DNA of 64,000 nt, from assembly GCA_905178155.1 (NCBI GenBank), contig CAJINV010000007.1, positions 2,399,151 to 2,463,150 on the forward strand, written 5' to 3'. The position numbers were made by a program, and so were the translations under genes. Shown piece by piece: positions 4,559-29,000 of this stretch (position 1 is its first letter; each line of letters opens with the position of its first letter). Source of the DNA: Amoebophrya sp. A120 (Eukaryota > Protista > Dinoflagellata). The notes under the pieces are model-generated. The model saw nothing but the letters and a program-made list of their open reading frames with translations. It was not told the origin of the DNA and searched no databases.

Positions 4559-7500
4559 TCACAGCTTCACTCTCTTCAGCCTCATCATCTGTGCTTCCAA
4601 ATTTCTCCTACTAGGAATAATGTAGGCACATTCAGCACTCTCCATCGTCAAAGCGTTCTTCCCCCGCGCAAGCAAAAACCATCCCGCCCAACCCCACGAC
4701 GAGCCCCAACTGTTTCGAACGACCCAATATGGGACTCCTGCGGCTGCAGGTACTACAGTGGTCGTGTCTGCGTTATTCTTACTTTCGTCACGTACTCGTG
4801 CATCTTCTCGTCCGTCTTGCCTATGAGTTGTACCCCATCCTGTTAGCTCAACAAAGTGGTCCACCGCGTGTCCCTTGCGAATCTCCGCATCGCCTAGATG
4901 AGGACCGGGGTCTAACACAACCGAGTTGTATCTCCTCCACTCTGGTACATCTGTGCTGGCGCTGTCGGGCGTATTTGAGCCTTTGCCTCCAATGTTCTCG
5001 TCCTGCGATTCGCCGTCAGCACGTCGAGCGCCAAGGACCGCGTTCTCCATTCTATACCGGTCGAAACTCTTCACGTTCGAGAAAAAACCGCAGGAAATCG
5101 GTCCGCCGACAAAAATTTCTTCCATCATCGTGAATTCGCTCAAATTTGGGATAATGCCAAACTCGGAGAGACGGAAGATGTTGGGATGGGCCTTGTCGCA
5201 GGTGTCGTTTGGGCCATCTTCCTCACCGTAATAAAGGGGCTGGCGCTGCGAGTCGTGCCGTATGACCTCCGAGCTTGTGCTAGAAGTGGTGGGGCTATTG
5301 TCAGACGACCTGCTTTCCTCCTCGATATTCGTTTGCACATACCCGCTCGCATCCGCTTTGTGGTTCAAGAAGCCACAATCTCCATTCCAGGCGCACGTGT
5401 AGCCCGAGAGGTGTTTGCAAACAAAATCCTTCTGCGCCGCGGAGAACGCCGGAAGCAGCCCAGAAGGTCTGTGATCTTCTTGCCGCGTTTTTAAATTATC
5501 CCGATCCGCATCATGTTGATCAGCACCACTTGAAGTTGCTGTAGTATCCGCATCGGAGTTCTTGCTATCTTCCTCCCTGTCTGTTTCTATTCCCGCCCCG
5601 GTCCCCCCTCCTCCAAACAAAACTTTATTTCCCAACGCCCCCGGCCCTTCGTACGTCGACATTTTTCCGCAGCACTCGATTCCCCAGGCGAACCCGTGGC
5701 CTCGGTATATTGGGTTCTCAAACGTTACATTCTCAACTGTATACATGATTTGTCATGCAAAATGACCATGACCCGCCAGACGATCAAGCTGCTTCGCATG
5801 ACAAATTCACGAAAGGTTAAATAGCACTGTAATCCGGATCAAACCTGTAATGCAAGACGCGCAAGGTTCTCCCTTTCGCCTGTGCTGGTCTTGCATTACA
5901 AATCCATGTAACAGTTGAGAATGTAACAGTTGAAAACGACATACGGTACGGGGCGTTGGTCTCGTCACTGGCGCCGAAGTGCTTCAGAAAATGCGCCCCC
6001 CGAATCGCCATGCCCGACCTGCAGTCGCCGCCGGTGAGAGAGTCGTCGAAGTTCAGCAGCGTCTGCATGGAGACTGTCGGGTCGAGCAGCCCCTTGGAGG
6101 CGATCCTGATCCGGTCGGAAAACGTCGCGATCAGCGCCGCGGCCCAGCAGTGGTAGCAAATCTTCCCGGCGAATTGGGAAAGGATTTTCGACGGCGCGAC
6201 CACAGTTGTGGTCGGAGATAAGTTTCTTGGATTTATCGCGCCGTTATTTCCTCCTAGTATGTTGGGTGGTATGACAAAGCTGTCGAAGCTGTTTCGCAGG
6301 CTGTTTTGTTTTCGTCGTGTGCTTGTTCCTCGCCACAGCTTGTGAAATTTCTCCCGGCGAAGACTCATTTCGGTCCAATAGGCGGGGTCGAGACGGGCAA
6401 GGTTTCGTGATTTTTGTGATGGAGATTCGTCTTGAACTTCATCTCTGTCCGCTCGGAGGTGTTGTTTTTGTTTATTTTCTTTTCCGTCGAGCAGAAACTG
6501 CAGGTGTGGATCTGGCCGGAAGTGAAGGTCTAGTTTTTCAGATTGCGCAGTATTTGCACTGGTAGTTCCTTCTGAAGATGATGGTACCTCAACCTTCCCC
6601 TTCGCCATGCTCACCAGCCTGGCCACGTCTCTTCGATCCGGTACCGCGAAGGAGCAGTGGCCGGATTCGATCTGGAACAAATTCACACCTCTCTCGAGGT
6701 AGAAGAAGCCGCGTAAACCCCAGTTCGTCCCGTAGGAATTTTTGCCGGACCAGTAGGGTGTTTCCTGCACCTTTCCGTACCCGACCAAGGTGACGACGTG
6801 GTCGGGTTCTGATGCAACTCCAACACTTGCAATTCTTCGTGAAGCTGAACTGCTATCGTGAACAAGATCTTGCTTTTTTTGCATAATCAAAGCATTGGTA
6901 CGGGCACCACCCCCATCCGGTCGCTCGACATCCGCTAGTCGTACCCCGTACTCAAACCGGTAGTTTTGAAAAACACTCTCCTCGCTGACAGCGACCCCGC
7001 ACACAATCGGTCCGTTCTTGTAGATCTCAGAACGCATCCGCTTCTCCATCTCTGCCACAGTCGCGGCAACCACGCGTCCGTAGAACTCCGCCCTGTAAAG
7101 TTGGTACGCGGGGCCGTGCGTCTGTTCTTGCGGTCGTTCCAGCTGCGTAATTGCAGAATCAGGGCCCTTTTCCAAATCGTATTGGATCGGTTTGTTTCCC
7201 GCGATCTCCGTGTTCCAAGCACACGTTCCGTTGAAATCGCAGGCACGGCAGAAAAAACTGCGAAGGTCGTCAACGGCTGCGAATTTCAAGTCCTCTACCA
7301 CGTCGATGCTGAAGCGCGATGAAAAATCGTTCCCGCGAGCAGGATGGCGATGGCTCCGCGCTCCTGCAATAGTAGATGACGTCGCAGCATCTTTGTTGCA
7401 CCGGTCGACGTGGTCCGTAGTGGTTGTAGTACTGGCCCCAGCTGCGCTACAGGTAGGTGTTTTCCCTCGTAGTTCTTCAACATCTACTGCAGCGGTGCTG

Positions 7501-8542
7501 TTCATCTCTACTTCGCTAAGCCTTAGATATGCTGCTGCGTTTTCCACTGCCGTCGCACGCTTGCCGCAACAGCCTGGACCCCACAGAGATTCAAAGGAAA
7601 GAAAGTCTTCACCGATTGTTCACGTTCACCAACTGCAGGTCGTGGAGAGTATTACAATTTTTATGACCGCGGCTCATTACTTCTAATTCTGACAGTTTGT
7701 TGTAAGTACGTACCCACATTGCAACACTTTTCAACAGTCGCGAGTTTCATTTTTATAATATCTACAAATGAGGTGCCGCATTTACAACAGAAACGTGCTG
7801 ATGATAAAGCTGATGCTGAAGTCTTTACTTTTCCACTTTCATAACCCAAGTCCACCCCTCCTTCCCAGATCGCGCAGGAGTCATCCGTGGTGCCAAACTC
7901 TTTGAAGAACCGAAACGCGTCGATCGGATCGCCTCCCTGACTGCTTCCGCCTCCGGTGAGACTCGAGTCGAAGTTGAGCAACAACTGCGGCGACAGCGCG
8001 TTCACGCTAAACAGCAGAGGGAAAGCGGTTTTCGTGAGTGAAGCTGCCGAAGACAGCATCATCGACCTCGCTATCGCAATCCGGAACCGATCCGCGAAGC
8101 TGGTTGCGGCGGCGATAACCCAGCATGTCGCAGAAGGTGCGGGGTTCAGTTGCGACACTTTCACGTCTTCGATAAGGTTGCGGAGGTTGAAGTTGTTTTT
8201 GTTCTTCTTGTTCGTCCCGCCGGACGTTCCGACAAAACGCCAATCGAACGACTGGAGATCATCGGTAACTTCGTTAGCATTCGCGTAGTTATCCCCGTCC
8301 TCATCTAATATCCAAGTGATTTCATCAGCCGGGGGCTCGGGATAGTTGGCATCTGCATTGCTGCTTTCGACACGGCTTCTGGGGTGAGGTAGAGTTGTCA
8401 CAGGTGAGGGAACATAGCACCTCGGTGGACGTGAAGAAGACGAGTCTCTCACAGAAAAAACTTGAGCAAATGGCACAACGAGGGCAGCAAGGACAACACG
8501 ACGACAGGGACAAATGAAAGCAGGAAAGGCCGACATTTTCAT
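4559..8542 (-). CDS. Secreted papain-family (C1A) cysteine protease with two tandem cathepsin X/Z-like domains; at least 3 exons
   Basis: Hydrophobic N-terminus. Domain 1: FDWR, SQ..ATCW..FADRFRI, GPIVCG, DHVVTLVGYG, KNSYGTNWG. Domain 2: SQ..YHCW..FSDRIRI, GPISCG, DHFVELTGWG, RNSWGSSWG. One intron is at 5708-5943; another at about 7580-7840 has unresolved boundaries. Confidence 0.9.
5708..5943. mobile_element. Introner/MITE-like non-canonical intron, family A
   Basis: About 50-bp imperfect TIR (TATTGGGTTCTCAAACGTTACATTCTCAACTG.. / ..CAGTTGAGAATGTAACAGTTGAAAACGACATA) flanked by direct repeat CGGTA. Removal with one DR joins NAPY-RGHG in frame. Confidence 0.92.
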
Positions 8543-9839
8543 CTTTTCGAATTCTTGGAATTATTGAAATCCATGCGATGTCACGATCAAAGTGGCACGT
8601 ATTGCCATCAACTCGTTGTGTAACTAACTTGTCTGGTCTGAAGTTGAAGTAGAGGTGACTTTTTTCGGATCAGATCTTCTTGTAAGTCTTGGCTTCATCT
8701 TCTATCGTGACCGGGAGTGGGAGCGATCTGGTGGAAGAACAAGAATTGAAACTGTCAGACAGGTAGCGCGTGGATGTAGTTCGCCAACATTTACAGTCCA
8801 AGGCCAGCTCAAGCGAAGGCTCGCTGCCACAACATGGCGACATAAATCATTTTGCAACGTAATGTACCCCCGGTGTGAGTTTGTAATGGTTGCCCCACGG
8901 CATCATGCCAGACCAGCAGCAGAAGTCCTTTTTTACAGGTTTTTGTCAACAACATTATTTGTATTTCAACAATCCTGTGGCCAACATTAGCGATGTAAAA
9001 ACTCTTGCTTCATCTTGCAAAGGCGTGCGTAGGCGTATCAAAAAATGTGAACCAGCATCAGCATTGTACACTCTAGCAGGAAAGCTGTGCGAGTTTACCT
9101 CGACGCTTGTGCTTCAAGCTGTATGGATTTTCTTCATGATGTTGAAATTTCAGCAATTCTTGTTCACTAATCCTAATGTAAGTAGCAATAGCATCAACAG
9201 GAACATGAAGCCTTCTTCTAGCGCTCCTATATTTACTTCTCCTACTCTTTCATCCAGATGAACTCCTTCTCCTGTAGTGTACCAGGTTCAGGAGACTGAA
9301 TCCCTACACTGCCGGAGGAGGAGAAGAGCGCAATTATGTGTCGCCCTTTGTTTTCCGACACGCCATGACATCAGATTTTTTCAACTACACACCTCAAACT
9401 CGTCACAGTCCGCTCTAACCCCGGCTCCACTTATTTTGGCCTTCTTTGCTCTTCAGGTTGTTCAGGTCGCCGTACTGGAGCAGGCTCAATGCTACTGCGT
9501 GGGACGTCGATCATGGGACGCGGTTCTTGCGCTCGCTTGTCTATCACTATCGCTTTCCGCAGCAGACTCGGCCAGCCCACGGGTGCTACCACGTCACCCG
9601 CTGCGGACAGTAGCAAGTAATCACGACCCATCCGCTTATTTTTACTCGTGGTCGTCTCAGTGAAAGAATGGTTCCAAATGTTGGTTGCTGAAGTTGTTCT
9701 GTTGTTCTTATTGTACTAGAAGAACCTGCTGGTTTATAATTCTGCATCTCACCTCCGTGTCGTCGTCCGCAGCCACGACCGTGTTGACCGCACGATCCGC
9801 TTCCTTGTTGCCAAGCCGCTACTTCCCCGCTGGGAGTCT

Positions 9840-10362
9840 CTACAAAACGACAAACGCCGACTCGTCGCGCTGCTCCGCTGTAAACCCCACCCCGTCCGGC
9901 GGTACCGACCAACAGTCGGCGCAGAAAAGGGCGTCGTCTAGTTCGTACTTCGCGTTCTCGTTTTCGCAGAAGGAGCACTTCAATTTCCCTAGACCCAGTA
10001 CCGACCTCTTCGTGAACTCCTTGATGCAGATATCCAGGAAAAAACACCCAACATCCCCATCCAATTTGTAGTCATGCAAAACACGTATATATAAAGTTCT
10101 GTGTTTGTCATGCAAAAAATGGATGGGGATGGGTTTTTTTCTTTGGATAGCAGAAAGCCGTGCCCTTTGGCGTAATCCCGACTGCTTTGTGGAGAAAAGA
10201 TCCGGCCGCGACCCCCAGCATGCCACCGGTGAGAATGCCGCCAATGGCGGCGCCGACGAGGCCGCAGGCACAAATTGTGGCGTCGGTTTCTGTCGTGTTT
10301 GCGAGTGATCTAAAGGAATCTTCTATATCACTATCAGCAGAACGTACACTTGTCAGTACCAT
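9840..10362 (-). CDS. Small hypothetical protein with Gly-rich hydrophobic segment and CxxC...CxxC; 2 exons
   Basis: ORFs 10108-10362 and 9840-10271 join in frame (GTAFC-IKEF) when element 10031-10149 plus one DR is removed. Contains CSFC and CADC pairs. Confidence 0.65.
10031..10149. mobile_element. Introner/MITE-like non-canonical intron, family B
   Basis: TIR TATCCAGGAAAAAACACCC..CATCCCCATCCA / TGGATGGGGATGGGTTTTTTTCTTTGGATA; direct repeat GCAGA. Confidence 0.92.
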
Positions 10363-10970
10363 GCATCTGCAGATCTTTCAAATTCATCTTGGCAACAAAA
10401 ACAGAAGCAAGTGCGTGCTATAGTTGTACTTTCCATCACTTTGGTCTTTGCGTTTTCCTTCTGCACCCTTTCTATCCCGAACAACATCGTTACAAAGGTC
10501 ACGGATTCTCTCGGTTCCTCTAACTGTGGACACTGCCCGGTCGCGTGGGCCAAATAGGGCAACTCCCCGCCACTCGCTTCCTGCGCGGCTAGATGTCGAT
10601 TGTCCGGGTTTTTGTAGTAGGTCGCCAAGCCTATCCCACACACGTTGAAGTCCGGCATGACCATGTTGCGAAAATGACCCGGCGAATGGACCCACCCGTC
10701 CACCGCCGCTTCCGGAACCGCCTCGAGGCCGTAGTTCTCTAACCGGGCGAGATTCTCCCCGCAGCCCTCAAACGTCCCGGCGTCATTTATCCGGGACAGC
10801 GCGTTTTGGTGGGAGAACGGAACCAGGGCCTCGGACATGCGGGCTGATGTTGATGTTGTTTCAGTACTAGAGAGGATTTCGAGTAATATATTCTGTTTTG
10901 AAAGTAAGGTAACATCAGCATCACTTCTCACATTCAGTTTGCTGCGAAATTGATGAAATTGCCAAAACAA
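10353..10970 (-). CDS. CAP/SCP-domain protein (core exon; upstream exons probably extend towards about 11940)
   Basis: FSH...CGENLA...AVDGWVHSPGHFRNMVMPDFNVCGIG is a typical CAP (YkwD-like) signature. Confidence 0.8.
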   Translation of the reverse strand: MFWQFHQFRSKLNVRSDADVTLLSKQNILLEILSSTETTSTSARMSEALVPFSHQNALSRINDAGTFEGCGENLARLENYGLEAVPEAAVDGWVHSPGHFRNMVMPDFNVCGIGLATYYKNPDNRHLAAQEASGGELPYLAHATGQCPQLEEPRESVTFVTMLFGIERVQKENAKTKVMESTTIARTCFCFCCQDEFERSADAWY

Positions 10971-13152
10971 AACGAAAGAAGAGCCTCCGATCGGTAAGAA
11001 AAAACAAAGAAGAAAGCGAGAAAAGACAAGATTTCATTTTCGTTTACCTGCATGCGTCTCGGCCGCGCGACAAAGCCCCTTGTGCGTGTTCAGGGGCAGC
11101 AACCCCTTCTCGATTCTTATATCCTGAGTAAAAACGTACCCACACCAGAGTTGTAATGCAAATCTGCATGCTGAGAATGTTTCTCATGCGGAGCCTCATG
11201 AGAAGCTGTTTCTAGTCGTGTTTTGCAATTTGTCATGCTCCAATCAGCATGGTATGCTAGGTCTGTGATGCTGCTGAGGTAGCTCAAACAGCACTACGCT
11301 ATGAGTCCAAATTTGTGATGCAAAACAGCCAAAACTTGTGGATTTGTCTAGCCGATTCCCCATCTTGACTATGGTGTGGGTACGTTTTTCGTCAGGATAT
11401 CTTATCTTGTTGACATAGTCGAGAATTTTTCTGGCGCACGGTATTACGAAGTTACTCGAGTACGGGGGCTTTTGAGGCTGTTCCCCGATCACCACACCAC
11501 GAGCTCCGGTTAGCATTCTTATCGCAGCTGATGTAGTAGTAACTGAACTGTTTGACAAGTGCTCGTTTATGTTGATTCGACGACTCCGGTGCTAATAACT
11601 AAGGCTCTACTCTGTAAGAAGCGCTAAAAAACGTCTCCATTTTTGTTTCTTCCCACGACCACGGAAGGTTGTAGTCCTCAGGCACAAATCAATAGACTCC
11701 TCACAGAAACGCGATATGGTGGAGCTTCATCTTCACTAGAATTGTAGTCGGCGTCGAATATGTGAGTGGCATCTGGTATTATTGATGTCCTGGAGAAGCT
11801 ACTAGCCCTTGTTGTTGACCTTGATGCGCCACTAGTAGAGGAAGATGTTCGCAAAAACACTCTCTCAAACTTTTTCACCAGAACGCCGACAGTCATTGCA
11901 GAAAAATACAGGAAAACGAAAGACGCGGGCTGCATCACTTATGTGTGGGGTTGTACATTTGGAAAGGGTGCGTCGGGGTGGGCGGGGCCAATATTGGGTA
12001 TGCGTATGAGTGCTGCTGTCCCGAATGAGTTGTTCCATTTCAGAGTGACAATGAAACGATCGAAAAAATCATCGAACGATGCGGAAGCTTCATCTCTCAA
12101 TTATACAAGGTGCCTTCGCTCCTGAGTTATCTCCTCTTGGATGTGTTTCCGATTCCGAGTTTCAGTCGCTGGGGCAAGCATGGCAGTGCGCAATCAACAA
12201 AGATAGTTAGAAGAACATCATCAACATTATTTTGCAAGTGCAGTGGTCTGCTCTATCCATGGTGGATATCATCAAACAACACATATTCCTTGAATTGATA
12301 GAAGACAACTTCTGGTGACCGTTCTTTACAGTAGTTGCCATCACAACTTGCACAACTATCACAGCTGCTCATCCGTCAGTTGATGCCAGTGGTCTGGTAA
12401 CACTTGCTCGACCGATGACCAAACCAAAATCTGTATTCTCATGATCCTTGGTACAAAAAACAAGCTCCAAGGGCTACAATTAGCGTTAGTCTTCGTACTG
12501 CTACAACTGTCCGACCTGAAGAATCGTTAATGTGATTGAATGTGTCCTCTCCTGAAAAGCTGTCGTCGCTGACTGTTATGATTGAATGTTTCCTGTTCGT
12601 TCGTCAACTTCAAGAAGCTACTACTGCTGTAGTGCTTCTCCCTCGATATTAGCCATAGCCGTAGCCCGCACTGTTAGTGTTTGGAATTGAATGCCTTCTT
12701 TCAAAAAAACTAAAACATCTAAGGATTGCTATTGCCCCGCATTTGCCGCGTTGCCAACATCGTCCATTCGCTGTCGCTTCATCATCGCAGGATCGAATTG
12801 CGGCCATGGGGGGTTTTCCTCATTTACTTCTTGTTCCCGTTTATTGTTTGCTGCTGGTGGTGGGGGTTGTACTTGTTGTACAACGTTCGCGACTGGAACG
12901 GCATTTGCGTCCGTTCCGAGCGGTGCATCGGGCACGGAGTAGTTGGTTCTGTAGTTAGTTTTTGGTCCTTGATAAGAACTTGCGCACGACCTCGACCACG
13001 TGGTCATCACTGCACTATAACTAAGTTGAGGATTTCTTCACCGTGCAGTGAAAAAATGGCCTGTAGTCAAGTGGCCATTGAAAGAGATATAGATTCTCAG
13101 AGAAGTGCCTTCTATGCGTATGAACAGAATAAATGATTTTCATTTTCATAAG

Positions 13153-14934
13153 TTAATACCCGCCCTGCTGTCCGTTCCACTTTCCGCCTTTCCCGCCCTT
13201 TCCCCAGCTACCTGACGATCCCCCGCCTCTTCCGCCCCACCATTTGCCGCCTTGCTGCGTACCACCGCCCGCCCACGGCGCTATTCCACCACCCGCTCCA
13301 TTTGCAGCACCCGCAGCACCACCACCGCCCCATGGATGATCCCCTGGCGCCGGCATGCCGAACGCACCACCCGCTGGCCCGCCTACGCCGTTTTGCGTCG
13401 CGACGTCCCATGCTGCTCCGGGTTGCATCAGCGGGTGGCCAAACATCCCAGCTGCGCCCCACATCGCGGCGGCCGCGGCCGCGGACTGCTGAGCAGGGTC
13501 GTCGATTTTCGGTAGCGAAGAGGAGCTGGAACTGAAAGACTCGGGCTTTTTCTTGCTGTTTAGACGTTCCTTCTTGTGGCTGTAGTGGGGATAATCTTCG
13601 TACATCTCCTGGACCAACCGCCGCTTGTTCGCTCTCGGAACATGCTTGATGTGCAGAAAGTTGCAATACCTGATGTGATGAAAAAAAAAAGTCTAATATT
13701 TCTCACCTGCAGCTCCTGCAGAGCGAGGAGGTGAAAATAATAAACAAAGCTCCGCGCACGAGCAGGACGACGGCGCACCAGAGAAACTTTTCAAGCGGTT
13801 AGAAGTACCCTCCGCGATTGCATCTCGCCTCGTGGAACGCGCGGCACCTCGCCTCCCTGAAGTCCGTGACCGGGGAAAATTCCGCCTTTATCATGCGCCC
13901 CGCGTTATGGGATTCTCAAATGTTACACTCTCAACTGTTGCATGAATTTGTCATGCAAGAAGAGCAAAAGTGAACGCGGGAAGATTGCGCGCTTTGCATT
14001 ACAAATTTGGAGCAGGTCCAGGTGGTGTTTAGCCCTTCGCGAATTTGTCATGCGAAACACCTTGATCGTGTGGCGGCTTATGGTCATTTTGCATGACAAA
14101 TCATGTAACAGTTGAGGATGAAGTAACGTTTGAGAACCCCATACGCGTAGTACCGCCCGTTCAACTTCTGCAATGCTTTCTCCGCGTCCTCTTCCATAAA
14201 GTACTTCACGTAAATATCGAAGAAAAAAACTTTGTTAGTGAAGGTGTCTACTTCGGGGGACAGCATGACAAATTTTCTCCGCATGAGAGAAAAAGCAAAA
14301 GCCTGCCAAGCACAGCAAGTACGTGAAAACACATATGAAAAGATGACGTCATGGGTGTCTGGCATGACAAGTGTATACTCTCTCGCATTTTCTGCATTAC
14401 AAACTTACACAGTTTTTTTCTCGCATAGTAGATGTTGCCCAACATGTGCTCGGACACGTTATCCGCAACGATCATGTCTTCTATCTCACCGTAGGTAGGT
14501 ATGCAATACAAAAAAATTTCCCGTAAACGACGTACACCATGCATGACAAGAAAGTTCGCCAGCTTGGAGCTTGCTACTAGTCATGCTCAATCATGTTCGG
14601 ACGATGGATTGGAAAAAACTTTTGTCATGCAGAAAAATAAGAAACTCACTTTTACGTCGTGAACAAAAAAAAAAAATTGCACTGTGGATAGTAGCCAGCT
14701 CGTGGAAAACCTCGTCGTAAAAATCTTCCAAATGCTTCTGCACGGCGTTGTAGGTTTCCTCCTCCCAGAGTCCCCCCGCTGCTATCTTCACCGCAGCGGC
14801 GGGCACGGGGTACATGTGGGACAGGAGAAGCGTCTGACTGGACGTCGGTCGCACGTGGTGTCGGGAGCACTGGTCGCCATGTCGGCAAGCGCCGATCTTC
14901 AGGTAGAAAGGGCAAGTGCCGTGCGCGTCCTCGG
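13153..14934 (-). CDS. U2AF1: U2AF35/U2AF1-like splicing factor, divergent paralog 1 (Gly/Trp-rich tail; 5' end unresolved)
   Basis: Spliced product has ZnF1 [48 protein letters not shown] and ZnF2 [25 protein letters not shown]. It has three introner introns plus one GT-AG intron at 13670-13808. Confidence 0.92.
13906..14143. mobile_element. Introner, family A (opposite orientation to 5708-5943)
   Basis: TIR TATGGGATTCTCAAATGTTAC / GTAACGTTTGAGAACCCCATA; DR CGCGT. The interior aligns with the reverse complement of 5708-5943. Removal gives [15 protein letters not shown]. Confidence 0.93.
14215..14427. mobile_element. Introner non-canonical intron
   Basis: TIR TATCGAAGAAAAAAACTTTG / CACAGTTTTTTTCTCGCATA; imperfect DR GTAAA/GTAGA. 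Removal gives the conserved GNIY-VKY. Confidence 0.9.
14500..14690. mobile_element. Introner, family C
   Basis: TATGCAATAC...GTGGATA ends with partial TIR; imperfect DR GTAGG/GTAGC. Removal gives FHELAT-YGEIED. Similar to the reverse complement of 28673-28874. Confidence 0.88.
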
Positions 14935-17176
14935 CTGTTTATGTTGAAGCTTTGATGTTCTGCGTGCAGAAGCGACGTCGGACTCAGAACTCTACGATTT
15001 TTTTTTGCAAAATAAGCACTACCATATGCGGAAGCAAAATATAAAACAACACCAAAAGCGCTCGAAATCTGATGCATGAAGAAACTACAGTAAAATTTTA
15101 CCAAAAAGCGCCGTGCTGCCGTACAGCGGTCTGCACAAAGGCTCACTATCCATCGCTACGTTCTCGTCTGAAATAATTTACGACACGTGGATAAGAGGCT
15201 GATGGTTCCGTCTGTAGGGGAGGCGTGTAGTTGAGTTGGCTGTAGTTGCTGCTCGGTTCTTTTCGTCGAGCGACTGTTGCGTTGCCTTTTCGCCGGAGCC
15301 GTCGAGCTGCTCAATTTGTGAAAAGATTGCGTTTGTTACACAATCAGTGACAGTGCCAGTCGTGCTGGCAGAGTCTGCAAGAAGAAGATCATACAGGCTT
15401 CGCAGTAGTTGTTGACCAAGTACCTACTTTGAGGTCCTACTAGAGGTTTTTTTTGTCACACTTGTTGAGTAGGAGTGACCTATTCCAAGAAAGGAAAGTT
15501 GTTGCTTACAAGTACAAATTTTTGTCCCAACACGTCGCTAAAATCATTAATGCAGAGCTCAAAATCGGAAAAAAAGTTCCGTAAACCAGTTATGTAAATT
15601 GTATTCCTTCAGAAGTAGCGCTTGGTGCAGATGAAAGTAGGTAATTACCAATATATCAAAGAACTCTTGTCTTTTTTGGGTCAAGTCTTCGAATTTTTTT
15701 TGGATGCAGTAGTAGATAATAAGTTCGGTGTTATTATGCTGATGTTTGAAAGTTGCTCGTGTCTTTCTTTGCCTTAATTTTTTCCCACAGCAGTTGCAGT
15801 TTCCGGCGCAGCTTTTTGCTCCTTCACACTGACTGTTTCCTGTTTTCCTTGAGGAAAATGTAGCTTTTGTTTCGCGCATGTTCATGTTCTGTTGTATCAG
15901 AGCAGTATTAAAGCTAAAGCTATGTCGTGTGTGCTACGTGTACGTGTGGCCGCGTGGAGGTTTTGTAAAATGAAAAAAAGGTAATTCTGTGTGAAAGACT
16001 CGTATGTTTTCGCCATGCGCAAAAAGGCGGCAATCCAGCTTCATCCTTTGTACCAGGTGCTGGAGGTTGGAGCCTGGATCGGCTCTGCGACGCTGAAAAC
16101 GCGCATTGCCTCGTCTTCAACGGAATGCAATCATCTTCTACTATATGCAACATGATATCATGTTTGTGACTTCCATCAGCCTATCTTTCTTGCAACTAAA
16201 CCTAAATTCATGAATTTCGAAAACGACAAGGAATATAAACGAGCTAAAAGAAATCAAATGCGAAGGGCATCACTTTGATTCGTGAGCCGGCCAGGCGTGG
16301 ATACGCTAGTGCCGCAGACCGTTTTGCCGACAAAGTATTCGCGCATCTTCACATCACAAAAATCATCTTGCAACACAACTTTTAGCCGGACACTTTTTCG
16401 CAGCACCAAAAATATTACGCGGACCTTGAGCTTGATCTTCTTCGCAATGACATCATCGCCAAAAAACGCACGAGCCAGCAATCACAACATGAATGTGGAC
16501 CAGAAATTATAAACCGCGGGCCAACACAAATTCAGCAAACCAGGTGCATCGGCAAGTCCCACTTCTACACAATATGGAACACCTTTGGTGAGGGGTAAAG
16601 AACACGATACGACGAACAGGACTACGAGCAAGTAGCTACTTTATAGTAGATTTGCTACTGCTCTTCATGACGCGACTAATTCTCCTTTTTTTCTCTTTGT
16701 GTCGTTCTTTTCTTTTTTCATTCCTTCGCGCAATTCCGTTTGGATGATGTGTGTGTCTGATGGCGACCAGCTTTGAGCAAAGAAGCCATCGAGTAGGCGA
16801 CCAGCACAAGGGGGCGGGAGCCAAAAGAACGACCAAAAGCCACGTCGCTGGTGGGTAGCTGCGTAAAATTCTTGCGTCAACATCTAGATTGAGGTGGGTT
16901 GGCAGTACAGGTCCTCTTTTTTGTCGTCGTCTGCCCATTGGGCGATCATGGCTCGTCGCTCCTCACTGTTGGAGCGGTGGATCCTGTTTTGATGGTTTGT
17001 ATTTCCTCGTCCATGATGTTGTTATGTAGACATGAGAAGTGTCAGTGTGCGTAGTTGCTCATGGTGAGGCTGATTTTCGTGTCAGTCCACGACCTCGGAT
17101 ACATAGTACAAAATTCGGATTCGAATCTCAGCACTGAATGAAAACGACAACAAACATGGTCCTCGAAAAAAACAAT

Positions 17177-18674
17177 TCAATACTTCGCCCCCAAGTCGCC
17201 GTCACCTCTCCCGCGGTCCCGCTCTCTGCCGCGATCGTCTCTTCCGCCTTTATCCCTGCCCCTGTCGCTTCGCTCATACCGGTCGTCTCTACCTCGGTCC
17301 CGGTCGCGGCCTCGATCCCCTCCTCTCCCTCGGTCTTCCCGCTCTCGGGATTTGCCTCGCGCTGCTTTCCTCTTCTTGTTATCGCGCTCGAGAAATTCCG
17401 GGTGTTCTTCATACATGCCACGCACGAGCCTCGCCTTCACGGCACGGGGAATGTGCTTGATGTGCATAAAGTTGCAGTACCTGGGGGTGGTTGTGGGGGT
17501 TTGGATTTCTATGGCGTTGAAATGAGATAATGACGAACAAAAGATCTAGTTTTTTTATAATTGTCCCGAGGGCAACATAGAAGCAGACCCATGTAGTTGC
17601 CATCCGTGTCAACATTAACATTTCAGAATGAGAATCATTATCATCTGAAATAAAAAGTGCATTATCAGCAGTACCCTCCCCGATTGCAGCTGCTTTCGTG
17701 GAACTGCCTACACCTGGCTTCCCGAAAGTCCGAGACGGGGGAGAACTCCGCTTGGATCAACTCTCCGCCGTAGTACCGGCCCGTTAAATTTTCCAATGCC
17801 TTCTCCGCGTCCTCCTCTCGGTAGTATTTCACGTATATGTTCCCGACCATGTGGTCGCTTATGTTGTCGACGACCACCATATCCTCGATCTCGCCAAAAT
17901 TTGCCATTTCCTGAAACACCTCCTCGTAGAATTCTGTGAAATATAGGTTGGACCACAATTTGTGAAATTTGTATTGCGATGAAGCATGATGTTGAGCATG
18001 ATTGCGCTTGTTCTCATCAACAGAAATTACGACTCAGATGTGGTCATGTATGCATGTGTCACTTTACATAGAAGCTAACGAAACCAGCAGCAGCACCAGA
18101 ACTTTTGGAAGAGCATAATTTATCAACGAATTATACGCTCCAGATGCTTCTGCGCCACATCGTACTGGTCATCCGTCCAGTCTATTTCTCTTGCGATGGC
18201 GAGCGATTCCTGCGTGTTGGAGTACCTGCGGATGAAGTACAAATTCAAATTCTTGTTTGTCGATGCTCATGCTGTCTTCATGCGAAAATAAGAATGGCAG
18301 TGGGTACTATCCCTCATCTATTGAAATTTGTCAACATGCGAAGTTGAATGGGAAAGCAAAAATCAAAGAAACGCTATACATGTGACTCAACAACAACGTT
18401 TGCGAGCTCGTTGGTCGGTTGTGCTGCCGACTGCATTGATCGCCGTTTCTGCAGGCCCCGACTTTGAAGTAAAACGGGCAATTCACTCGGTCCTCTTCGG
18501 TACCTGGGAAGTTAGTAATTTTTTGTTAGACTCTTCAATTCATTTTCATTTATCCCTGCTCCACCAAGAAAACCATATGAAGAAACGAAAAGTAGGATGT
18601 GAATCCGTCTACTCATAGCTGTGCTCCACAGAAATGATAGCCTTACCGTAGATGTTTGCCAAATGCTTCGCCAT
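17177..18674 (-). CDS. U2AF1: U2AF35/U2AF1 splicing factor, conventional copy (paralog 2) with RD/RG-rich tail; 5 exons
   Basis: [41 protein letters not shown] ... GNIYVKY ... [25 protein letters not shown]. In-frame GT-AG introns at 18504-18646, 18226-18379, 17934-18136 and 17481-17674. Confidence 0.95.
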
Positions 18675-21990: not shown

Positions 21991-23003
21991 CTTAAACTCC
22001 TGCTGGCGGGTACCTTGCACTTCGTGCGCGAGGGCAAGCTTGTCGCGAACGATTTGAAGTACCATTTTTCTTTTATATTTCTTGTAGTGTATTCAACAAA
22101 TTATATAAATCCAAAACCAGATCTAAATGACGCGATGTTACTCCCCTCGTGGAAACAAAACTATAACAAGCAGAAAATTATACCAGTACAGCAAGGGTAG
22201 ACCGAGACGGACCCGGCCTCAGGATGTAGAAACTAGACGAGGAAGAGGGAAGAACTACAGCTAGTAGTACAGCTACAGCTAGAAGTTGTACAGGAATGTT
22301 TTCTACAACAAATTCTTTTTCTTGTCGCTCTTGATATTCGGAAAAAAAAATCTGTCCATTAAAAGTAACTCTGTGTACTTAGAGGTCGAGGTACCTCTCC
22401 TATGGTCTTCTTACAACCCTTGTTCTCTATTGAGCTCAACTGATGAAGATAAACCACAAAAAGGAGCACAGGAACATCCGGAATCAGACAAGGTACTGAA
22501 GATGTAGTTGAGACACATGCACTAGGTAGTAGAGACGAAATATTGTGGATACGGTATAATCTGTATGGCCCGAGCGAAGACGAATAAGATTCTGACGCCA
22601 GCAACTTAACCGACTAGATGGACCCGCCATGGTTTTGATATAATATTTTTTGCCTTTGGTTTGAAGATGTACGGGCGAGACCGACTTCTGCAGAGGAGAC
22701 ACATTTGTTGTAGATCGATTCAAATGCATTTGCACCACGGACGAATGCGAGAAGCTTCCAGCTCGAGACAGCTGCGGCGTCCGAGATCATTGTTCGAATC
22801 GAAATTTCTTCCGAGTCACGTCGATGGTTCATTTTATTTTTCCCTGCCAGGATGGCAGGACAATCAAAATCATTTGGAAACGAAAGCGCGAAATCTCATG
22901 ATTGCAAGTCCTCGTGCAGGGCGGGTCTCTGTATCTTCACTGTCTGCTTAATGGCAAGAAAATATTCTTGGATTTGCGACCACAGCGACATCACCTCATA
23001 TCA

Positions 23004-26000
23004 TCATCGCTTCGGAGGTTTCATTTTCTTTGCACTTGGTGCACGACAAGAGGTTGACACTGTACTACTTCCGGAACTTGCTACAAGAGCCCCCGCCGAG
23101 GTGGAGCCCGAACCTGTTCCACCATTCTTGTGATGTTGATAGTACGCAATCATCAGATATCGGTCCCGCACACTCCGCCGGGATTGCAACAGATCCAACA
23201 CCAACTCCAGCAGTGCGTCCAAGAGCGCTTCATCACAGTTTTCGAAGTTTCCGCCCGCTTCGATTCGGCTGTGCAGCGAGTTAATCCGGTCTTGCTTGAT
23301 CAGCAACTCCGCTCGCTCTGTGTCCTTCGCCACGTGAATGTAGTCGCGGGTAGATTTGTTATCCAGGAAAAAACACCCATCCCCATTCATTTTTTGCATG
23401 GCAAATAGTGGATTTTATGCATGTTTCGCATGACAAATTGGATGGGGATGGGTGTTTTTTCGTGGATATTTGTAGATGAAATCCAACAACTGCTGCAAGT
23501 GAAGCTGGAGCGACTTTTTGATGCTCTCCTTTTGGTGCAAGAAGTTGGTCTGGTGCTGCAACTGCCGTCTGTACTCAACCGCTAGATAATCTAAGCAACG
23601 GAGCTGCATCCACGGGGAGAGGGGGGACTCCGGTATGTCTTGGAGCAGGCTCAAGACGCTGCTTGCGGTCTCCCCCGAAAGAGCTTTCCAGGGCCCGATC
23701 AGCATGCAGTGCTCCTGTATGTGGAATTTCGTTGTTAGCAGTCTGTTACGAACATCTTGAGACAGCGCGTTTGTCCACACTGTGGTGAGGATCCTCTCCG
23801 CCGCGACGCCAAAGATTTCGTGTTCGTAAGAACTCGTAGTGTCTGCATCGGAGGAGGAAAGGTGGTGGTTTTTTGGTGTGCTTGCTCTCCTTGTTCTCGT
23901 CGTAGCCACAGATTTAATATTACGCTCTCTTGAAGTCGAAGTTGCAACTCCTTTCGGCATGGAGGACCCTCTGGCAACCATTGTGACGACCTGCTCGCCA
24001 TCGTCCTCGCTGAGCATGGGCAATCGGCCGGAAGAGACTGCTTGCACCGAACCGGTTGAGGTTGAGCGGGTGCTTGGTGAATAACCAGACTCATCGACTT
24101 CTTTCCCGGAAGATGTTGCAGAAGTTTTCGCACGAAGATTTGATGCAATTTCTGCTTTGATTTCTCCCAGTCTCTCACTAGTTTCAGCCGCTGTTTTCAA
24201 CCTCGTCGCTATTTTCGACAACAGCCCCTCTTCCACAGACTTCTTGAAGTCTGCAGCCGACGTGGCTGCCAAGCGGAGAGAAGAGGCACGAAGAAGCGAC
24301 GTTGCGGTGATGTGCTTCGCCACTGTGTTCGCCAAGTCATTGTCGCCCATGGTTTGTGTCGAGTCTGCGCTCCAAAAGTCGCCATTTTCGCCGACGCTCT
24401 GCATGAGGTGAGCGACATTAAGGTTGACTTTCTTATTTCTGTTGGGAGAAGTGGAAGAGGATGACGACTTCAAAGGCGAAGATAATTGGCCTTTAATGTT
24501 CATCACATCATCTCCTGTGTCAACGCGTAGCGGGGGGCGGTATAACCTACTCGACGACGATGATGACGGAGTAGCGTCGGCGTCGTTCGAAGAGAACTTC
24601 CCTGCGAACAGCCTCGCAAATTTGCTGCCAATAGAGTTGGAGCTGCCTGGTGCTGTCGTTCCTTGTTCCGGAGCAGCGAGTGCCGTATTATTTGATGCAG
24701 ATGCTGCACTCTGCTCTGCGAGATTTTTCCGGATGTCAAGCTCGGAATTGGGCTCTAAAACTTCCACTTCTGCAATAGCTCTCCCTGCAAAGTAATCCTG
24801 CTCAAAATGCCCCCGAGAAAGCAAGCCGCTCGTAGAAGCCCCTGCGTTTGTGATCGCGACGTCTTCTAACAAAGAGGACTCTTGTTCGTCCCCCTGCCCG
24901 CCGACCAAAATCGCAGCTGCGGGTCGGTCCGCCAGCTTTATCCTCTTCGGCAGCTCCCAGTGAATATTGTCCGTTTGTTCTTCTCCGTCTGCGGTGGTTT
25001 CTTCACTTTGATGGCTCGACGCTCCTTCAGAAGAAATTTCATCACCATGATCTGCCGGCGTGATCGTATCACCTCCACCCGACAACAACTTCAACCGTTC
25101 CGCCCTCGAAGGCCGCGCTAATCTTGTTTCCGACAGACCGAACCTGTTTTGCCGGTTTGCGTACGTCACTTCGGTGCTCCAGACGGTGTTGCGAGTTTTG
25201 TTCAGTGGTGGCGCAGTGGAAGAGGAAGTAGATGATGAACTTGTCCCGTTCGACGTTGGATGAATCATCAGCACATCCTGTGACTCGTAGCTTGTAAAAG
25301 TTTTTCCGTCCCTGGCTGCATCGTCCTCTTCGTTAACTCTCGTCGGGGGTTGCAACAGGACGCTGCCACGCCGGGAGAGCCTGGTGGATTCCTCATCCAC
25401 AGAGAGCAGACTTGTTGTACTGGTCGCGGGCAAGGTTGTTGCCGCGTCGGAGGTGCGGACGGCTGTCTTCTCCGCCGCACTCGCCCGCTTTGCATCGAGT
25501 GCAGCTGTAGTTGAGACTCTACTTGTACCGGTCGTACCCTGAAGATGGTCGCCAGTGGAAGACGAAGACGTGAGTGCAGCTACCCCGTTAGTTCTTTCCT
25601 CCCCATCAACATGTGCAATCGCCACCCCCTCCCCGACCGTTTCGTGCGACATCACCCCAACGTTCTCCGGTCGTAAACTCTCCACGAACGGCCGCACCAT
25701 TTCGTGAGACAAAACCACCGACAGCATCTCCGAAAACTGCGACACATGGGCGGCTAGTTGCTCCTGAATCTTTGCGACAACTATGGTTTGAATCAACGAC
25801 CCAAACAGTTTCGACAGAATGTTGTACAGCCAGGCGAATCGTGTTTCCTCCACATGTAACTTGAGCTCCCCAATCCGCATCTCGTTCTTACTCATCACCA
25901 ACTCTGGGCGCCAGCCACTGTTTTGGTGGGCTTCGTTGTCAGTATCGGAGGTTTGGTCGTATTGGTATCTATTATTGCCGCGGCTCTGATGCGAGGAGGT

Positions 26001-29000
26001 TGTGGAAAAGATGCTGCTGCTGTCATCATCTTCGTCTAGCGCAGCAGCTTCATCGTCTTCGGAAGTGAGCAAATCAGAATTATTTTCGTCAGCGAGTGAC
26101 CTGTTGGAGGAATCTTCAGAATCGAAGTCCTCTACTTCGCCATTACCTTCTCTTCTACGACCCTGTCGTTGTCTCCTACCCCGCCTCCTGCTCCGTCGTG
26201 GTACTGCGACCTGACCTCCCGAACAATCTGCTTTTCCTGCGTCAGCAGTAGTAGTTCTTTGCTCCTCGTTCTCCGCCGTCGTCGTTTTCACCCATCGCAC
26301 TGAGAAGCACAGCTGCAAACTCACGTCCCCCGCAAACGCAAACGCCAGTCCGTGGCCTCTCAGGAACGGGAATTTCTTCTGTTTGTACTTGAACCGCAGG
26401 TCTTGGATCTGGCAGCTCATGTCCCAAAGTTCGAAATTTAGCAACCGCGGATCCCCGGGAGTTGTGTTCAGCTCTAATTTCACACACTCTTTTTTCAATT
26501 TAAACCCCGCTAGGTCCAAGTTCTCCAGTTCATAGACCAAATCCTCCGATTCGCCCCCAAGTTCCGCGATCCGGATGTTCGGGAGAAAGGACATCAAAAG
26601 ATCAACCGCTGCGTCTAGAATTTCGTTGAGGAATTGGTCTCTTTTGTCGCCGTCCATCAACTTATCGATCGTGTCCTCGGCCTTATCGAATACCCTTCCC
26701 ACGTCGAGGTTTTCCAGCTTGGAGAGAATCTGGGTGGACACTGTCGCACTTTGTGTCCCTCCGCCCTCCGCTCCGTCTTGCTGCGGTTGCTGTGGATGCT
26801 GTCCTCCTTCAGGAGCCGAGTGGCCGGAATCGCTCGCGGTGGTGGTGCCGTCGTGGTAGTTTTGGAGCTGCTTGTTCTGTGCGACGTTTTTCGGTGGGCT
26901 GGAGGATAAATTTAAGGCGCTGTTTAGCAACCCTTGAATGGCAGAACCCTGGCTCGCGGCGTTGACTTGCTTCAGAATACCGTCCACCTTCTCCATAGCG
27001 GTCTCGGCTTTCGCGGCCACCCGGTCGTTGGCGAGGATCTTTGAAATTGTGTTCACCGGATCTCGTGTGAAGTCCGAGGCGGAAACATCGAGCGAAGCAA
27101 GGGTTTTGGACTGGAACAGAGAGGAAGAGGCTGCAGCTTCGTCGTCGTCATTCGCACTTCTTTTCCCGCTTTTGCTTTTCGACGCTGAAGAAGATCCGGC
27201 GCCGCGCTTATTTCTCCTACTTTTACTTCCCTTGGTACCTGTAAGATGGTCCGGGCTTCCTCGCGGGGAAGACGAAATCGTAGCTTTCGGAAGGAGTTTC
27301 TGCAATCCTGGGGGCAGTTTGATCCCGGCTTTGGACAGAACGGAACCAAGGTCCAGCTTGTCCAAATAGTCTAAGTTCTGCGCCTTATTCTCCCATTGCT
27401 CAAGGAGTTCTAAGCTGGTCTGCTCCTCGGTGGCGAAAGTTTGCACCCAGTTTTCGCACGTTCTGGCGAGAGTTTCGCGAATGGAAAGCGGTGGCTTGCC
27501 GGAGGAAAGCGCGTCCGAGGTGTGCTCGTCGAGCTGGAAAGGATTTTGATTTTTTTTCTAGTTTCCGCTTCGTCCCGGAGCATGCAAGAACGTAAGATAA
27601 AAGTAATGCTTGTGTACACTGCTCATGCAAGAACGTATAGAAACAAGTAAGGTCAACCTGTTGTGTGAGGCTGTTGCATGATCCAGCATTAAGAGGATAA
27701 AACCAAACGTGGTAAGTTGGAGTTTAAGTACCGTGCTCGCCAGCGAGTCGATTTCATCTCCCTGCTGCTGCAGCACCTGCAAGATTTTCGCCCTCGTATT
27801 CTCCAGCCAGTCTGGATTTCTTCTCAGAAAGCGCTGCTGCACGGAAGCGAGAATGTCCAGGCCCTTGCTCTTCCACACCTCTTCCCTTTCCAGCAAACCC
27901 TTTCCCAGGCTTTCCACTTCCGCACTCAACTTGCTCCCGAGCTCCCCCGCTAAAGCCGCGTTTTGCGACGCCAACGCAGCGGCTTCCGGATCTTGAGGTG
28001 CTACCGATTGTTGATCACCTTGAAGATGTTCTGGTCCCTGCGCAGCTGCCTCTCCTGCGTTATTAAACTGTTGCAAGGTCTGCATCAAGCGGTCCCCACC
28101 GAGTTTAAACCTTCTCCCCACGGCCGTGTCGTCGAAATTTTCAAAAGTTGAGCCAATCGCGTCTTTCACTCTGTGCACTGCGTGGTCCGCCTGCGCCGCC
28201 AGGTTCTGCACGTCTTCATCCTTCTCGAGTTCCTCTCCCATTTTCTGCACCCCGGTGACAAGTTTGGTCGTAATGTCAGAAAATTCGGACTGTAAAACCG
28301 TCCCCACGTGCTCCACTTCGTGTTCGAGCTCGCCTTTGAGTTTTCGCACGTCCTCGCGCAGACGTTGCTTCTCCGCTTCCGTGACTCCGGGGGCGGAAGC
28401 AGGTGCTGCTGGACTCGTCGGCTCTTGTTGGGGGGTGAGGAGAGACGAAGTGCCTGCATCATCTGCATCACGACCTAGACGGTCGCGCGAAGACGACGCG
28501 ACAGGTGAGAGCGGGGCACCGGCATCACCAGCACTAACACTAGAGGAACTTCTTGCAGGTGCGTTTGTGGTCAGTACATCAGGCGGAAACACAGCGCTCT
28601 CACGGGCAACACCTCCGACCGAATTCCGTTTATGCTCCTGCACCACCGCCGCAAGCCAGTCCGGCCTGGCGATATCCAGAGTAAATTCACCGTAACCGTA
28701 CGATGGACGAACTTACAAACGCGGTCTAACTACAGCATGACAAAATTTTGATCTACCTTCTGTCAATCCTAGTACTAGTCAGCATGACGAGTTGCACACT
28801 CCAAGTTCTATTGCGAAATTTGTCATGCCTTTTGGGTTTGCACGTCGTTTACGGGAAAAAGCTTGTATTGCATAGGCAATGCTCGTGTTCAACAGGAAGG
28901 AGCTCTGTCTTCGTGCCTTGACTAGATCTTTATCCACAGTAAATTTCCTGCACACGTACAAATGCAGTCATCTCTGCATGACAAAACTTGCCTTCAGTCC

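What the first reader, a model, noticed from the sequence alone, without database searches (positions are those of the whole stretch)
5708..28874. Members of the same family act as introns in both orientations
Seen: all host genes are on the minus strand, yet family A (5708-5943 vs 13906-14143), family B (10031-10149 vs 23360-23468) and family C (14500-14690 vs 28673-28874) pairs align as reverse complements. Inference: the splice signals must lie in the symmetric TIRs or their hairpin, not in an oriented branch point or polypyrimidine tract, which is unlike normal spliceosomal introns.
Basis: partly seen in the sequence, partly recalled or inferred. Interest (0 to 1): 0.72.

Follow-up and report, generated by a model that had tools for sequence, protein, structure and literature searches.

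The report
Two-way hairpin introners of Amoebophrya

Summary
All three pairs align better as reverse complements than on the same strand, and all lie in minus-strand genes. Each element starts TAT, ends ATA, has terminal inverted repeats and is flanked by a 5-bp target duplication.

Transcript-like contigs skip B1, A2, C1 and a fourth element by exactly element plus one duplication copy. NCBI gene models do the same for A1, C2 and a third family C member. B2 rests only on reading-frame, homology and contig-end evidence. No cut register allowed by that product gives GT-AG in 12 of 12 elements.

Proteins 100% identical to the window are named Amoebophrya sp. A120. The elements match the introner elements published for that strain, hairpin model included (Farhat 2021), so the system is already known.

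Excision in both orientations was not stated in the texts I could search. A family B census supports it: 3 copies one way, 7 the other, 9 of 19 unassigned.

The symmetric repeats still place a T-run near the 3' end on either strand. The enzyme and any branch point remain untested.

The parts
5708..5943 (-). Family A member A1 (236 nt), in a papain-type peptidase gene. Its 5-bp target duplication is CGGTA at 5703-5707 and 5944-5948 (+ strand).
   Evidence: Duplication and termini. Removal of element plus duplication opens an 882-aa ORF. NCBI protein P0003 reads ...ETNAPY|RGHGFAWG across the junction. RNA contig pieces end at 5944 with 52 and 72 letters left over; the joint itself is not listed.
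10031..10149 (-). Family B member B1 (119 nt); duplication GCAGA. Orientation is opposite to B2.
   Evidence: Joint 10025->10150 skips 124 nt with 5 ambiguous letters, in contigs of X1 and X2. Hairpin z -5.6.
11120..11399 (-). Element D (280 nt); duplication TCTTA. Its status as an intron is not established.
   Evidence: Inverted repeat 91% complementary. ORF join only 90 aa, 62/28. No joint listed.
13906..14143 (-). Family A member A2 (238 nt), reverse complement of A1, in U2AF small-subunit paralog 1; duplication CGCGT.
   Evidence: Joint 13900->14144 skips 243 nt with 5 ambiguous letters. The spliced product is collinear with paralog 2, which has a continuous exon there.
14215..14427 (-). 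Element E (213 nt) in the same U2AF gene; duplication GTAAA/GTAGA (4 of 5).
   Evidence: Joint 14209->14428 skips 218 nt. The transcript keeps the gene-upstream duplication copy, which limits the cut register to -3..0.
14500..14690 (-). Family C member C1 (191 nt) in the same U2AF gene; duplication GTAGG/GTAGC (4 of 5).
   Evidence: Joint 14494->14691 skips 196 nt. Register limited to -4..0. Collinear with paralog 2.
23360..23468 (-). Family B member B2 (109 nt); duplication TTTGT.
   Evidence: ORF join of 617 aa. Hairpin z -9.5. Contig pieces end at 23468 with about 515-523 letters left over. The flanking exons match one remote homologue in order (P0007 residues 641-729 and 786-860). No listed joint and no gene model.
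28673..28874 (-). Family C member C2 (202 nt), reverse complement of C1; duplication 4 of 5; weak inverted repeat.
   Evidence: NCBI protein P0002 maps to 28925..28875 and then 28667..27732, so it omits the element plus 5 nt. RNA fold z +0.2.
28931..29084 (-). Family C member F (154 nt), same orientation as C2; duplication ATCTT.
   Evidence: P0002 maps to 29126..29085 and then 28925.., so it omits the element plus 5 nt. Orientation.
39010..39317 (-). Element G (308 nt) in a porphobilinogen deaminase gene; duplication AAGGA.
   Evidence: Removal opens a 370-aa ORF reading ...[19 protein letters not shown]. Pfam Porphobil_deam and Porphobil_deamC hit just downstream.
62765..62993 (-). Element H (229 nt); duplication 4 of 5.
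   Evidence: ORF join 162 aa, 143/19: weak. Hairpin z -6.2.
63431..63751 (-). Element I (321 nt); duplication TAGGC.
   Evidence: ORF join 236 aa. Hairpin z -5.9.
27534..27731 (-). Ordinary GT...AG intron in the gene that also hosts C2 and F. It removes an in-frame stop codon.
   Evidence: P0002 mapping; sequence GTACTT...TTTCCAG.
12949..15101 (-). U2AF small-subunit paralog 1: three GT-AG introns plus the three elements C1, E and A2.
   Evidence: Joints; spliced ORF and comparison with paralog 2; U2AF identity of the paralog family.

Best explanation
These are the published introner elements of Amoebophrya sp. A120: short non-coding transposon copies with TAT...ATA inverted-repeat ends and a 5-bp target duplication, inserted in either orientation into exons of minus-strand genes, and absent from transcript contigs or gene models as exactly the element plus one duplication copy. 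Inferred mechanism: in the pre-mRNA the two terminal repeats likely pair, bringing the two duplication copies side by side. The cuts are then likely placed at a fixed distance from the element ends: 0-3 nt before its first base and 5-2 nt after its last. Because the ends are an inverted repeat, either strand would present the same 5' UAU..A-run and 3' U-run..AUA, so orientation would not matter. Which machine cuts and joins is not known. I favour a relaxed, U1-independent spliceosome-like route, the kind of alternate mechanism Farhat et al. suggest, over a separate enzyme.
For: Identity:
- NCBI proteins 100% identical to the window are named Amoebophrya sp. A120.
- Farhat 2021 describes A120 repeats starting TAT, then about 7 variable nt, then at least 3 A, with 3-5-nt direct repeats at the boundaries and a hairpin that joins the exons. 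That matches.

Transposon nature:
- The 5-bp duplication is perfect in 8 of 12 window elements and 4 of 5 in the other 4.
- Among 32 full-length copies (window plus loci) it is 5/5 in 26, 4/5 in 4 and lower in 2.

Exact removal:
- 4 element joints skip element plus 5 nt, beside 11 GT-AG joints, in contigs of two runs (15 of 20 joints were listed).
- Gene models cross the A1, C2 and F junctions.
- U2AF paralog 1 after removal is collinear with paralog 2, with no indel at the three sites.

Other points:
- No canonical register in 12 of 12 window elements. Among 9 further copies, 1 has a chance AT..AC.
- Hairpins: z of -5.9 or lower in 9 of 12 elements, against -2.1 to +1.7 in 11 GT-AG introns. 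B1 and B2 have z -5.6 and -9.5, with the stem starting at the first base of the element.
- Both orientations. In family B, 3 copies lie as B2 and 7 opposite, of 19 (with B1 placed).
Against: - In each family only one member has a listed RNA joint. A1, C2 and F rest on gene models and B2 on indirect evidence.
- The contig runs are labelled RNA only by a guess, and both come from one sample.
- C2 (z +0.2), E (-1.9) and C1 (-3.4) fold weakly yet are removed.
- Arm mismatches on the sense strand are not enriched for G.U over A.C (44 vs 58, p 0.20).
- Only 1 of 40 pairs in 19 family B copies shows a compensating change. So nothing here shows selection on the RNA stem as opposed to inherited transposon symmetry.
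- No DNA-read control for empty sites was obtained.
Confidence: 0.82

Rival explanations
1. A dedicated non-spliceosomal system (an endonuclease plus a ligase that recognises the hairpin base or the TAT...ATA ends) would remove the elements, as has been suggested for Euglena nonconventional introns.
For: No GT-AG in any register. The cut is offset by the duplication length, as in the Euglena code, where spacers of 3 nt and 5-6 nt flank paired CAG/CTG motifs and the authors suggest factors distinct from the spliceosome (passages of PMC12501133). Farhat et al. did not detect U1.
Against: Farhat et al. report nearly all spliceosomal proteins present. The same genes carry ordinary GT-AG introns. 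The 3' arm carries a U-run like a polypyrimidine tract. No candidate enzyme was examined here.
Confidence: 0.25
2. Only one orientation of each family is removed efficiently. The opposite copies are poorly spliced and merely tolerated or mis-annotated.
For: Listed RNA joints exist for only one member of each pair. Gene models may follow the reading frame rather than reads.
Against: Retention would break long ORFs, because element plus 5 nt is not a multiple of 3 for A1 (241) and the elements contain stops. RNA contig pieces break exactly at the A1 and B2 boundaries and continue with other letters. In family B, ORF-interrupting copies occur 3 one way and 7 the other.
Confidence: 0.08
3. The element-free messages come from element-free DNA (empty alleles or somatic excision), not from RNA processing. 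Loss of element plus one duplication copy is exactly what an empty site looks like.
For: The product equals the pre-insertion sequence. No DNA-read control could be run.
Against: Four of 12 duplications have already diverged and family members differ by about 20%, so the insertions are old. Farhat et al. count tens of thousands of such introns against a genome assembly that retains them. The same contigs also lack 11 GT-AG introns, so they are transcript-derived.
Confidence: 0.03

Closest known systems
Introner elements (non-canonical introns) of Amoebophrya sp. A120 and A25, Farhat et al. 2021, PMC7789003 (abstract, sections 10-12 and 16, and term hits in the one held supplement file)
   Same: Same organism. 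Inverted repeat starting TAT followed by an A-run, short direct repeats at the boundaries, non-GT-AG ends, hairpin, repeated families, unidirectional genes.
   Different: Nothing essential. The paper gives direct repeats of 3-5 nt in variable positions; here they resolve to a uniform 5-bp duplication directly flanking TAT...ATA. I found no statement on element orientation relative to the gene. The paper's figures are not held.
Euglenid nonconventional introns, Nomura et al. 2025, PMC12501133 (passages only)
   Same: Ends like a miniature inverted-repeat transposon that can pair, no GT-AG, and cut sites offset from the paired motif by fixed spacers.
   Different: Euglena uses CAG...CTG motifs with spacers of 3 nt and 5-6 nt. 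Here the ends are TAT...ATA and the offsets sum to 5 nt. The lineage is unrelated.
Transposon introners of Micromonas and Aureococcus (Huff et al. 2016, paper not held) and of many eukaryotes (Gozashti et al. 2022, PMC9860276, passages)
   Same: DNA-transposon copies with inverted repeats and target duplications that create introns on insertion.
   Different: Those use canonical splice sites carried by the element or recruited from the duplication (for Aureococcus). These have no canonical site in any register.
Non-canonical introns of the tunicate Fritillaria borealis (described in the review PMC11282704; Henriet 2019 not held)
   Same: Recently gained, species-specific non-GT-AG introns.
   Different: Fritillaria shows preferred dinucleotides (AG-AC, AG-AT). 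Here the end dinucleotides follow the random duplication sequence.

Membership tests
Amoebophrya A120 introner elements (Farhat 2021) | Lies in the Amoebophrya sp. A120 genome | tested here: met
   P0002 and P0003 are 100% identical to window translations and are named 'unnamed protein product, partial [Amoebophrya sp. A120]'.
Amoebophrya A120 introner elements (Farhat 2021) | Inverted repeats of 8-20 nt at the two intron ends that can form a hairpin | tested here: met
   In the minimum-energy fold, at least 8 of the first 15 nt pair with the 3' end in 11 of 12 elements (C2: 0).
Amoebophrya A120 introner elements (Farhat 2021) | Repeat motif starts TAT, then less conserved nt, then at least 3 A | tested here: met
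   All 24 termini of the 12 elements are TAT/ATA. An A-run is present in 9 of 12 5' arms and a T-run in 12 of 12 3' arms.
Amoebophrya A120 introner elements (Farhat 2021) | Direct repeats of 3-5 nt overlapping the exon/intron boundaries | tested here: met
   5-nt repeats: 8 of 12 perfect, 4 of 12 with 4/5. 26 of 32 copies are perfect when other loci are included.
Amoebophrya A120 introner elements (Farhat 2021) | Splice boundaries other than GT-AG, with removal supported by RNA | tested here: met
   0 of 12 elements have a canonical register. Four joints are listed in transcript-like contigs. For A1, C2 and F the support is a gene model only; for B2 it is indirect.
Miniature inverted-repeat (non-autonomous) DNA transposon | Inverted-repeat ends, target duplication, no coding capacity, many copies at unrelated sites | tested here: met
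   Lengths are 109-321 nt. 17 further family B copies, each with its own flanking duplication, occur in other public contigs.
Miniature inverted-repeat (non-autonomous) DNA transposon | A cognate autonomous element or transposase that mobilises it | not tested
   None in the window. Gozashti 2025 describes an A120 family with inverted-repeat ends and Copia/Gypsy-like ORFs. A link to these families is my speculation.
Canonical U2-type spliceosomal intron | GT (or GC) at the 5' end and AG at the 3' end | tested here: not met
   in contrast with 11 of 11 neighbouring introns that are GT-AG.
Canonical U2-type spliceosomal intron | Branch point and lariat | not testable with these tools
   The raw RNA runs gave no usable reads on the stretch (X8: 0 reads; X9: 59 reads, all on a repeat).
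Euglenid nonconventional introns | [quoted passage not shown] | tested here: not met
   The termini are TAT...ATA and the offsets sum to 5 nt.

The most novel reading that the evidence does not exclude
Removal of these introns reads only a strand-symmetric code: the TAT...ATA transposon ends, paired at the hairpin base, with a fixed 5-nt offset. It is carried out by a machine that needs neither GT-AG nor an internal oriented signal. Any insertion of such a transposon, in either orientation, is therefore erased from the message at once. This would be an RNA-level clean-up of transposon insertions, convergent with Euglena nonconventional introns.
Probability: 0.3. Interest if true: 0.7.

Novelty: already known. 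Interest (0 to 1): 0.38.

Why it matters
If removal truly ignores orientation, the recognition signal is limited to what both strands share: the terminal repeat and its hairpin. That narrows the search for the unknown mechanism behind the more than 60% non-canonical introns of Amoebophrya. It would also explain how a transposon can flood coding exons without killing genes. The system itself is published, so the gain here is a specific, testable corollary and a clean anatomy: a uniform 5-bp duplication and a cut register within -3..0.

Tried and rejected
- No whole genome is held, so no genome-wide census was possible. I used 19 public contig loci found with a 20-nt family B pattern instead. 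Their organism was not established.
Direct joints for B2, C2 and F, and a DNA empty-site control, are therefore missing. 5 of 20 joints were not shown.
- No RNA holder is listed on record. Raw RNA run X8 laid 0 reads and X9 laid 59 reads, all on a repeat at 11318-11370, so they gave no test.
- Test for selection on the RNA stem: G.U vs A.C mismatches on the sense strand were 44 vs 58, p 0.20. Covariation in 19 family B copies was 1 of 40 pairs. Both are uninformative.
- Gene model for the B2 host: none found. The representative search gave only one 35%-identical protein. It is collinear across B2 but leaves about 27 residues unaligned at the junction, so exactness is not shown.
- Canonical splicing of A1 at GT(5944)...AG(5701), 244 nt, would also keep the frame but delete one codon. 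It is rejected because P0003 reads ...APYRGHG.
- Element D: no evidence that it is an intron.
- Papers not held: Roy 2023, Henriet 2019, Huff 2016. They or their supplements may state the orientation point.
- Literature searches for the orientation point: 'introner' + 'both orientations' gave one unrelated review. One search listed no paper holding 'introner' among the 15 shown.
- Earlier-findings look-up near this place: nothing.
Full report
**What is there.**
- Read on the gene (minus) strand, each starts TAT and ends ATA and is flanked by a 5-bp direct repeat. Examples: A1 TACCG, B1 TCTGC, A2 ACGCG, B2 ACAAA.
- A scan for TAT...ATA with inverted-repeat ends and a 5-bp duplication finds 7 to 9 elements, against 0-2 in shuffled sequence.
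- A scan that does not require TAT returns 7 hits. Six are TAT...ATA elements and the seventh is a low-complexity hit.
- I followed twelve elements: A1, B1, D, A2, E, C1, B2, C2, F, G, H and I (see parts). The duplication is perfect in 8 of 12 and 4 of 5 in the other 4.
- All families share an internal motif, TTGTCATGCA: 38 hits with at most one mismatch, against 5.95 expected.

**Orientation.** Each pair aligns better as a reverse complement.

| Pair | Reverse complement | Same strand |
|---|---|---|
| A1 / A2 | 195/241 | 163/247 |
| B1 / B2 | 94/119 | 87/119 |
| C1 / C2 | 133/210 | 116/242 |

- The same-strand scores are also high because the elements are near-palindromes.
- In family B the orientation is nevertheless well marked. 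The shared motif occurs twice in direct order, both on + in B1 and both on - in B2 (alignment).
- Element F has C2's orientation and is opposite to C1.

**Host genes.** All genes examined run on the minus strand.
- The long ORFs are all on the minus strand.
- The 11 ordinary introns seen in transcript contigs between 5000 and 24900 are all GT...AG on the minus strand.
- Hosts include a papain-type peptidase (A1), a U2AF small-subunit gene (C1, E, A2), a porphobilinogen deaminase (G) and proteins without a family.

**Are they removed from the message?** Contigs of runs X1 and X2 lack 11 GT-AG introns, so they are transcript-derived. Their RNA label is only a guess and both come from one sample. 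The evidence by element:
- **B1, A2, E, C1: listed joints**.
  - B1: 10025->10150, 124 nt = 119 + 5.
  - A2: 13900->14144, 243 = 238 + 5.
  - E: 14209->14428, 218 = 213 + 5.
  - C1: 14494->14691, 196 = 191 + 5.
  - Five of the 20 joints were not listed.
- **A1: indirect RNA evidence plus a gene model.** Two contigs stop matching exactly at 5944 with 52 and 72 letters left. NCBI protein P0003 reads ...ASDETNAPY|RGHGFAWG across the junction.
- **F and C2: gene model.** NCBI protein P0002 maps to 29126..29085, 28925..28875 and 28667..27732. It leaves out each element plus 5 nt.
- **B2: indirect only.**
  - The ORF join is 617 aa.
  - Contig pieces end at 23468 with about 515-523 letters left.
  - One remote homologue, P0007, matches the upstream exon (residues 641-729) and the downstream exon (786-860) in order.
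- **Homology check in the U2AF gene.** After removal of C1, E and A2, paralog 1 is collinear with paralog 2. There is no indel at the three sites, and paralog 2 has uninterrupted exon there.
- **Caveat.** In no family do both members have a listed RNA joint.

**No ordinary splice signals.** Given the products, the cut can lie in 4 to 7 registers per element.
- None of them gives GT-AG, GC-AG or AT-AC in 12 of 12 window elements.
- Among 9 further copies in other loci, one has a chance AT..AC.
- Where the two duplication copies differ, the transcript keeps the gene-upstream copy. This limits the register to -3..0 (E) or -4..0 (C1) relative to the first base of the element.

**Structure.** The sense RNAs fold into long hairpins.
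- z is -5.9 or lower in 9 of 12 elements, against -2.1 to +1.7 for the 11 GT-AG introns (mononucleotide shuffles; six of those control introns were taken 1-7 nt off register).
- For B1 and B2, z is -5.6 and -9.5 with dinucleotide shuffles, and the stem begins at the first base of the element.
- Exceptions: C2 (+0.2), E (-1.9) and C1 (-3.4).
- I found no sign that the stem is kept by selection at the RNA level. Sense-strand G.U vs A.C mismatches are 44 vs 58 (p 0.20). Only 1 of 40 pairs covaries in 19 family B copies.
- In family B the arms are conserved and the loop varies.

**Wider census.** A 20-nt family B pattern found 19 public contig loci, 16 of them under one assembly prefix.
- They hold 17 further full-length family B copies plus copies of families A, C, D and G.
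- Of 32 full-length copies in all, the duplication is 5/5 in 26, 4/5 in 4 and lower in 2.
- I assigned a host strand only where exact removal opens an ORF of at least 150 aa, with at least 30 aa on each side and at least 1.8 times the best ORF on the other strand.
- By that rule, family B has 3 copies oriented like B2 (B2 included) and 6 opposite. B1, placed by its RNA joint, makes 7 opposite. Nine of 19 stay unassigned.
- The organism of these contigs was not established, and no RNA was examined for them.

**What it is.** Proteins 100% identical to the window are named Amoebophrya sp. A120. I read the abstract and sections 10-12 and 16 of Farhat et al. 2021 (PMC7789003) and searched the one held supplement file for terms. 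The paper reports the following:
- More than 60% of introns in this strain are non-canonical.
- A subset, the introner elements, has 8-20-nt inverted repeats and 3-5-nt direct repeats at the boundaries.
- The A120 repeats start TAT followed by an A-run.
- The hairpin is proposed to join the exon boundaries.
- The elements resemble miniature inverted-repeat transposons, and U1 was not detected.

The window elements meet every one of these features (see membership test), so the system is already known.

**What may be new.** The word 'orientation' in that paper and its held supplement text refers only to genes.
- Gozashti 2022 allows for opposite-orientation insertions in its method.
- Gozashti 2025 filters for same-orientation alignment.
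- I therefore found no explicit statement that one family is removed in both orientations. Roy 2023, Henriet 2019 and Huff 2016 are not held, and figures are not held either.

**Mechanism.**
- Shown: exact loss of element plus one duplication copy, absence of canonical ends, both orientations present in exon-interrupting positions, and terminal pairing in most elements.
- Inferred: the paired ends define the cuts at a fixed offset that sums to 5 nt.
An inverted repeat with an A-run gives a U-run 8-19 nt before the 3' end on either strand (12 of 12). A relaxed spliceosome could therefore still be reading a 3' tract.
- The closest functional analogue outside the lineage is the Euglena nonconventional intron, with paired CAG/CTG motifs and spacers of 3 and 5-6 nt.

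**Earlier notes of this scan.** AI notes from other genomes (not checked here) report similar hairpin-bounded, signal-less introns in other dinoflagellates.

**Verdict.** The phenomenon is already published for this very genome. Orientation independence is a modest, testable addition.

Noticed in passing
window 12949-15101, 16984-18646 and about 33850-35400 (minus strand): Three paralogs of the U2AF small subunit, the factor that reads the 3' AG, lie in one 22-kb stretch. Paralog 1 itself hosts three non-canonical elements, and paralog 2 has five GT-AG introns and none. In tunicates, non-canonical splicing has been tied to divergent U2AF copies (PMC13326754, passages).
   Followed up: partly
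window, 38 sites, e.g. 5750, 10069, 10105, 13948, 14090, 23395, 23427, 28975, 39051: The subterminal motif TTGTCATGCA(AAA) is shared by otherwise unrelated element families (38 hits vs 5.95 expected). It is arranged as inverted pairs in most families but as two direct copies in family B. It is not mentioned in the main text of Farhat 2021. It could be a binding site for a transposase or an RNA factor.
   Followed up: partly
window 37609-38164: A 556-nt element with 30-nt inverted repeats (90% complementary) and the same internal motif. Its ends read aag|GTATCAGG...TTGACAG|gaag, so it looks like an inverted-repeat element with ordinary GT-AG ends. Farhat et al. report the repeat organisation in 15% of canonical A120 introns.
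   Followed up: no
window 27558-27560 within intron 27534-27731: An in-frame stop separating two long minus-strand ORFs lies inside an ordinary GT...AG intron of the gene that also hosts C2 and F. The two ORFs are therefore one gene (P0002).
   Followed up: yes
L001-L019: Sixteen of the 19 public contigs that carry family B copies share one assembly prefix and also hold copies of families A, C, D and G. This looks like a second assembly of the same or a very close organism. Its identity was not pursued.
   Followed up: partly
window 11120-11399: Element D has the best inverted repeat in the window (33 nt, 91%) and a perfect duplication, but no long ORF join and no listed joint. It may sit in an untranslated or intergenic stretch.
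   Followed up: no
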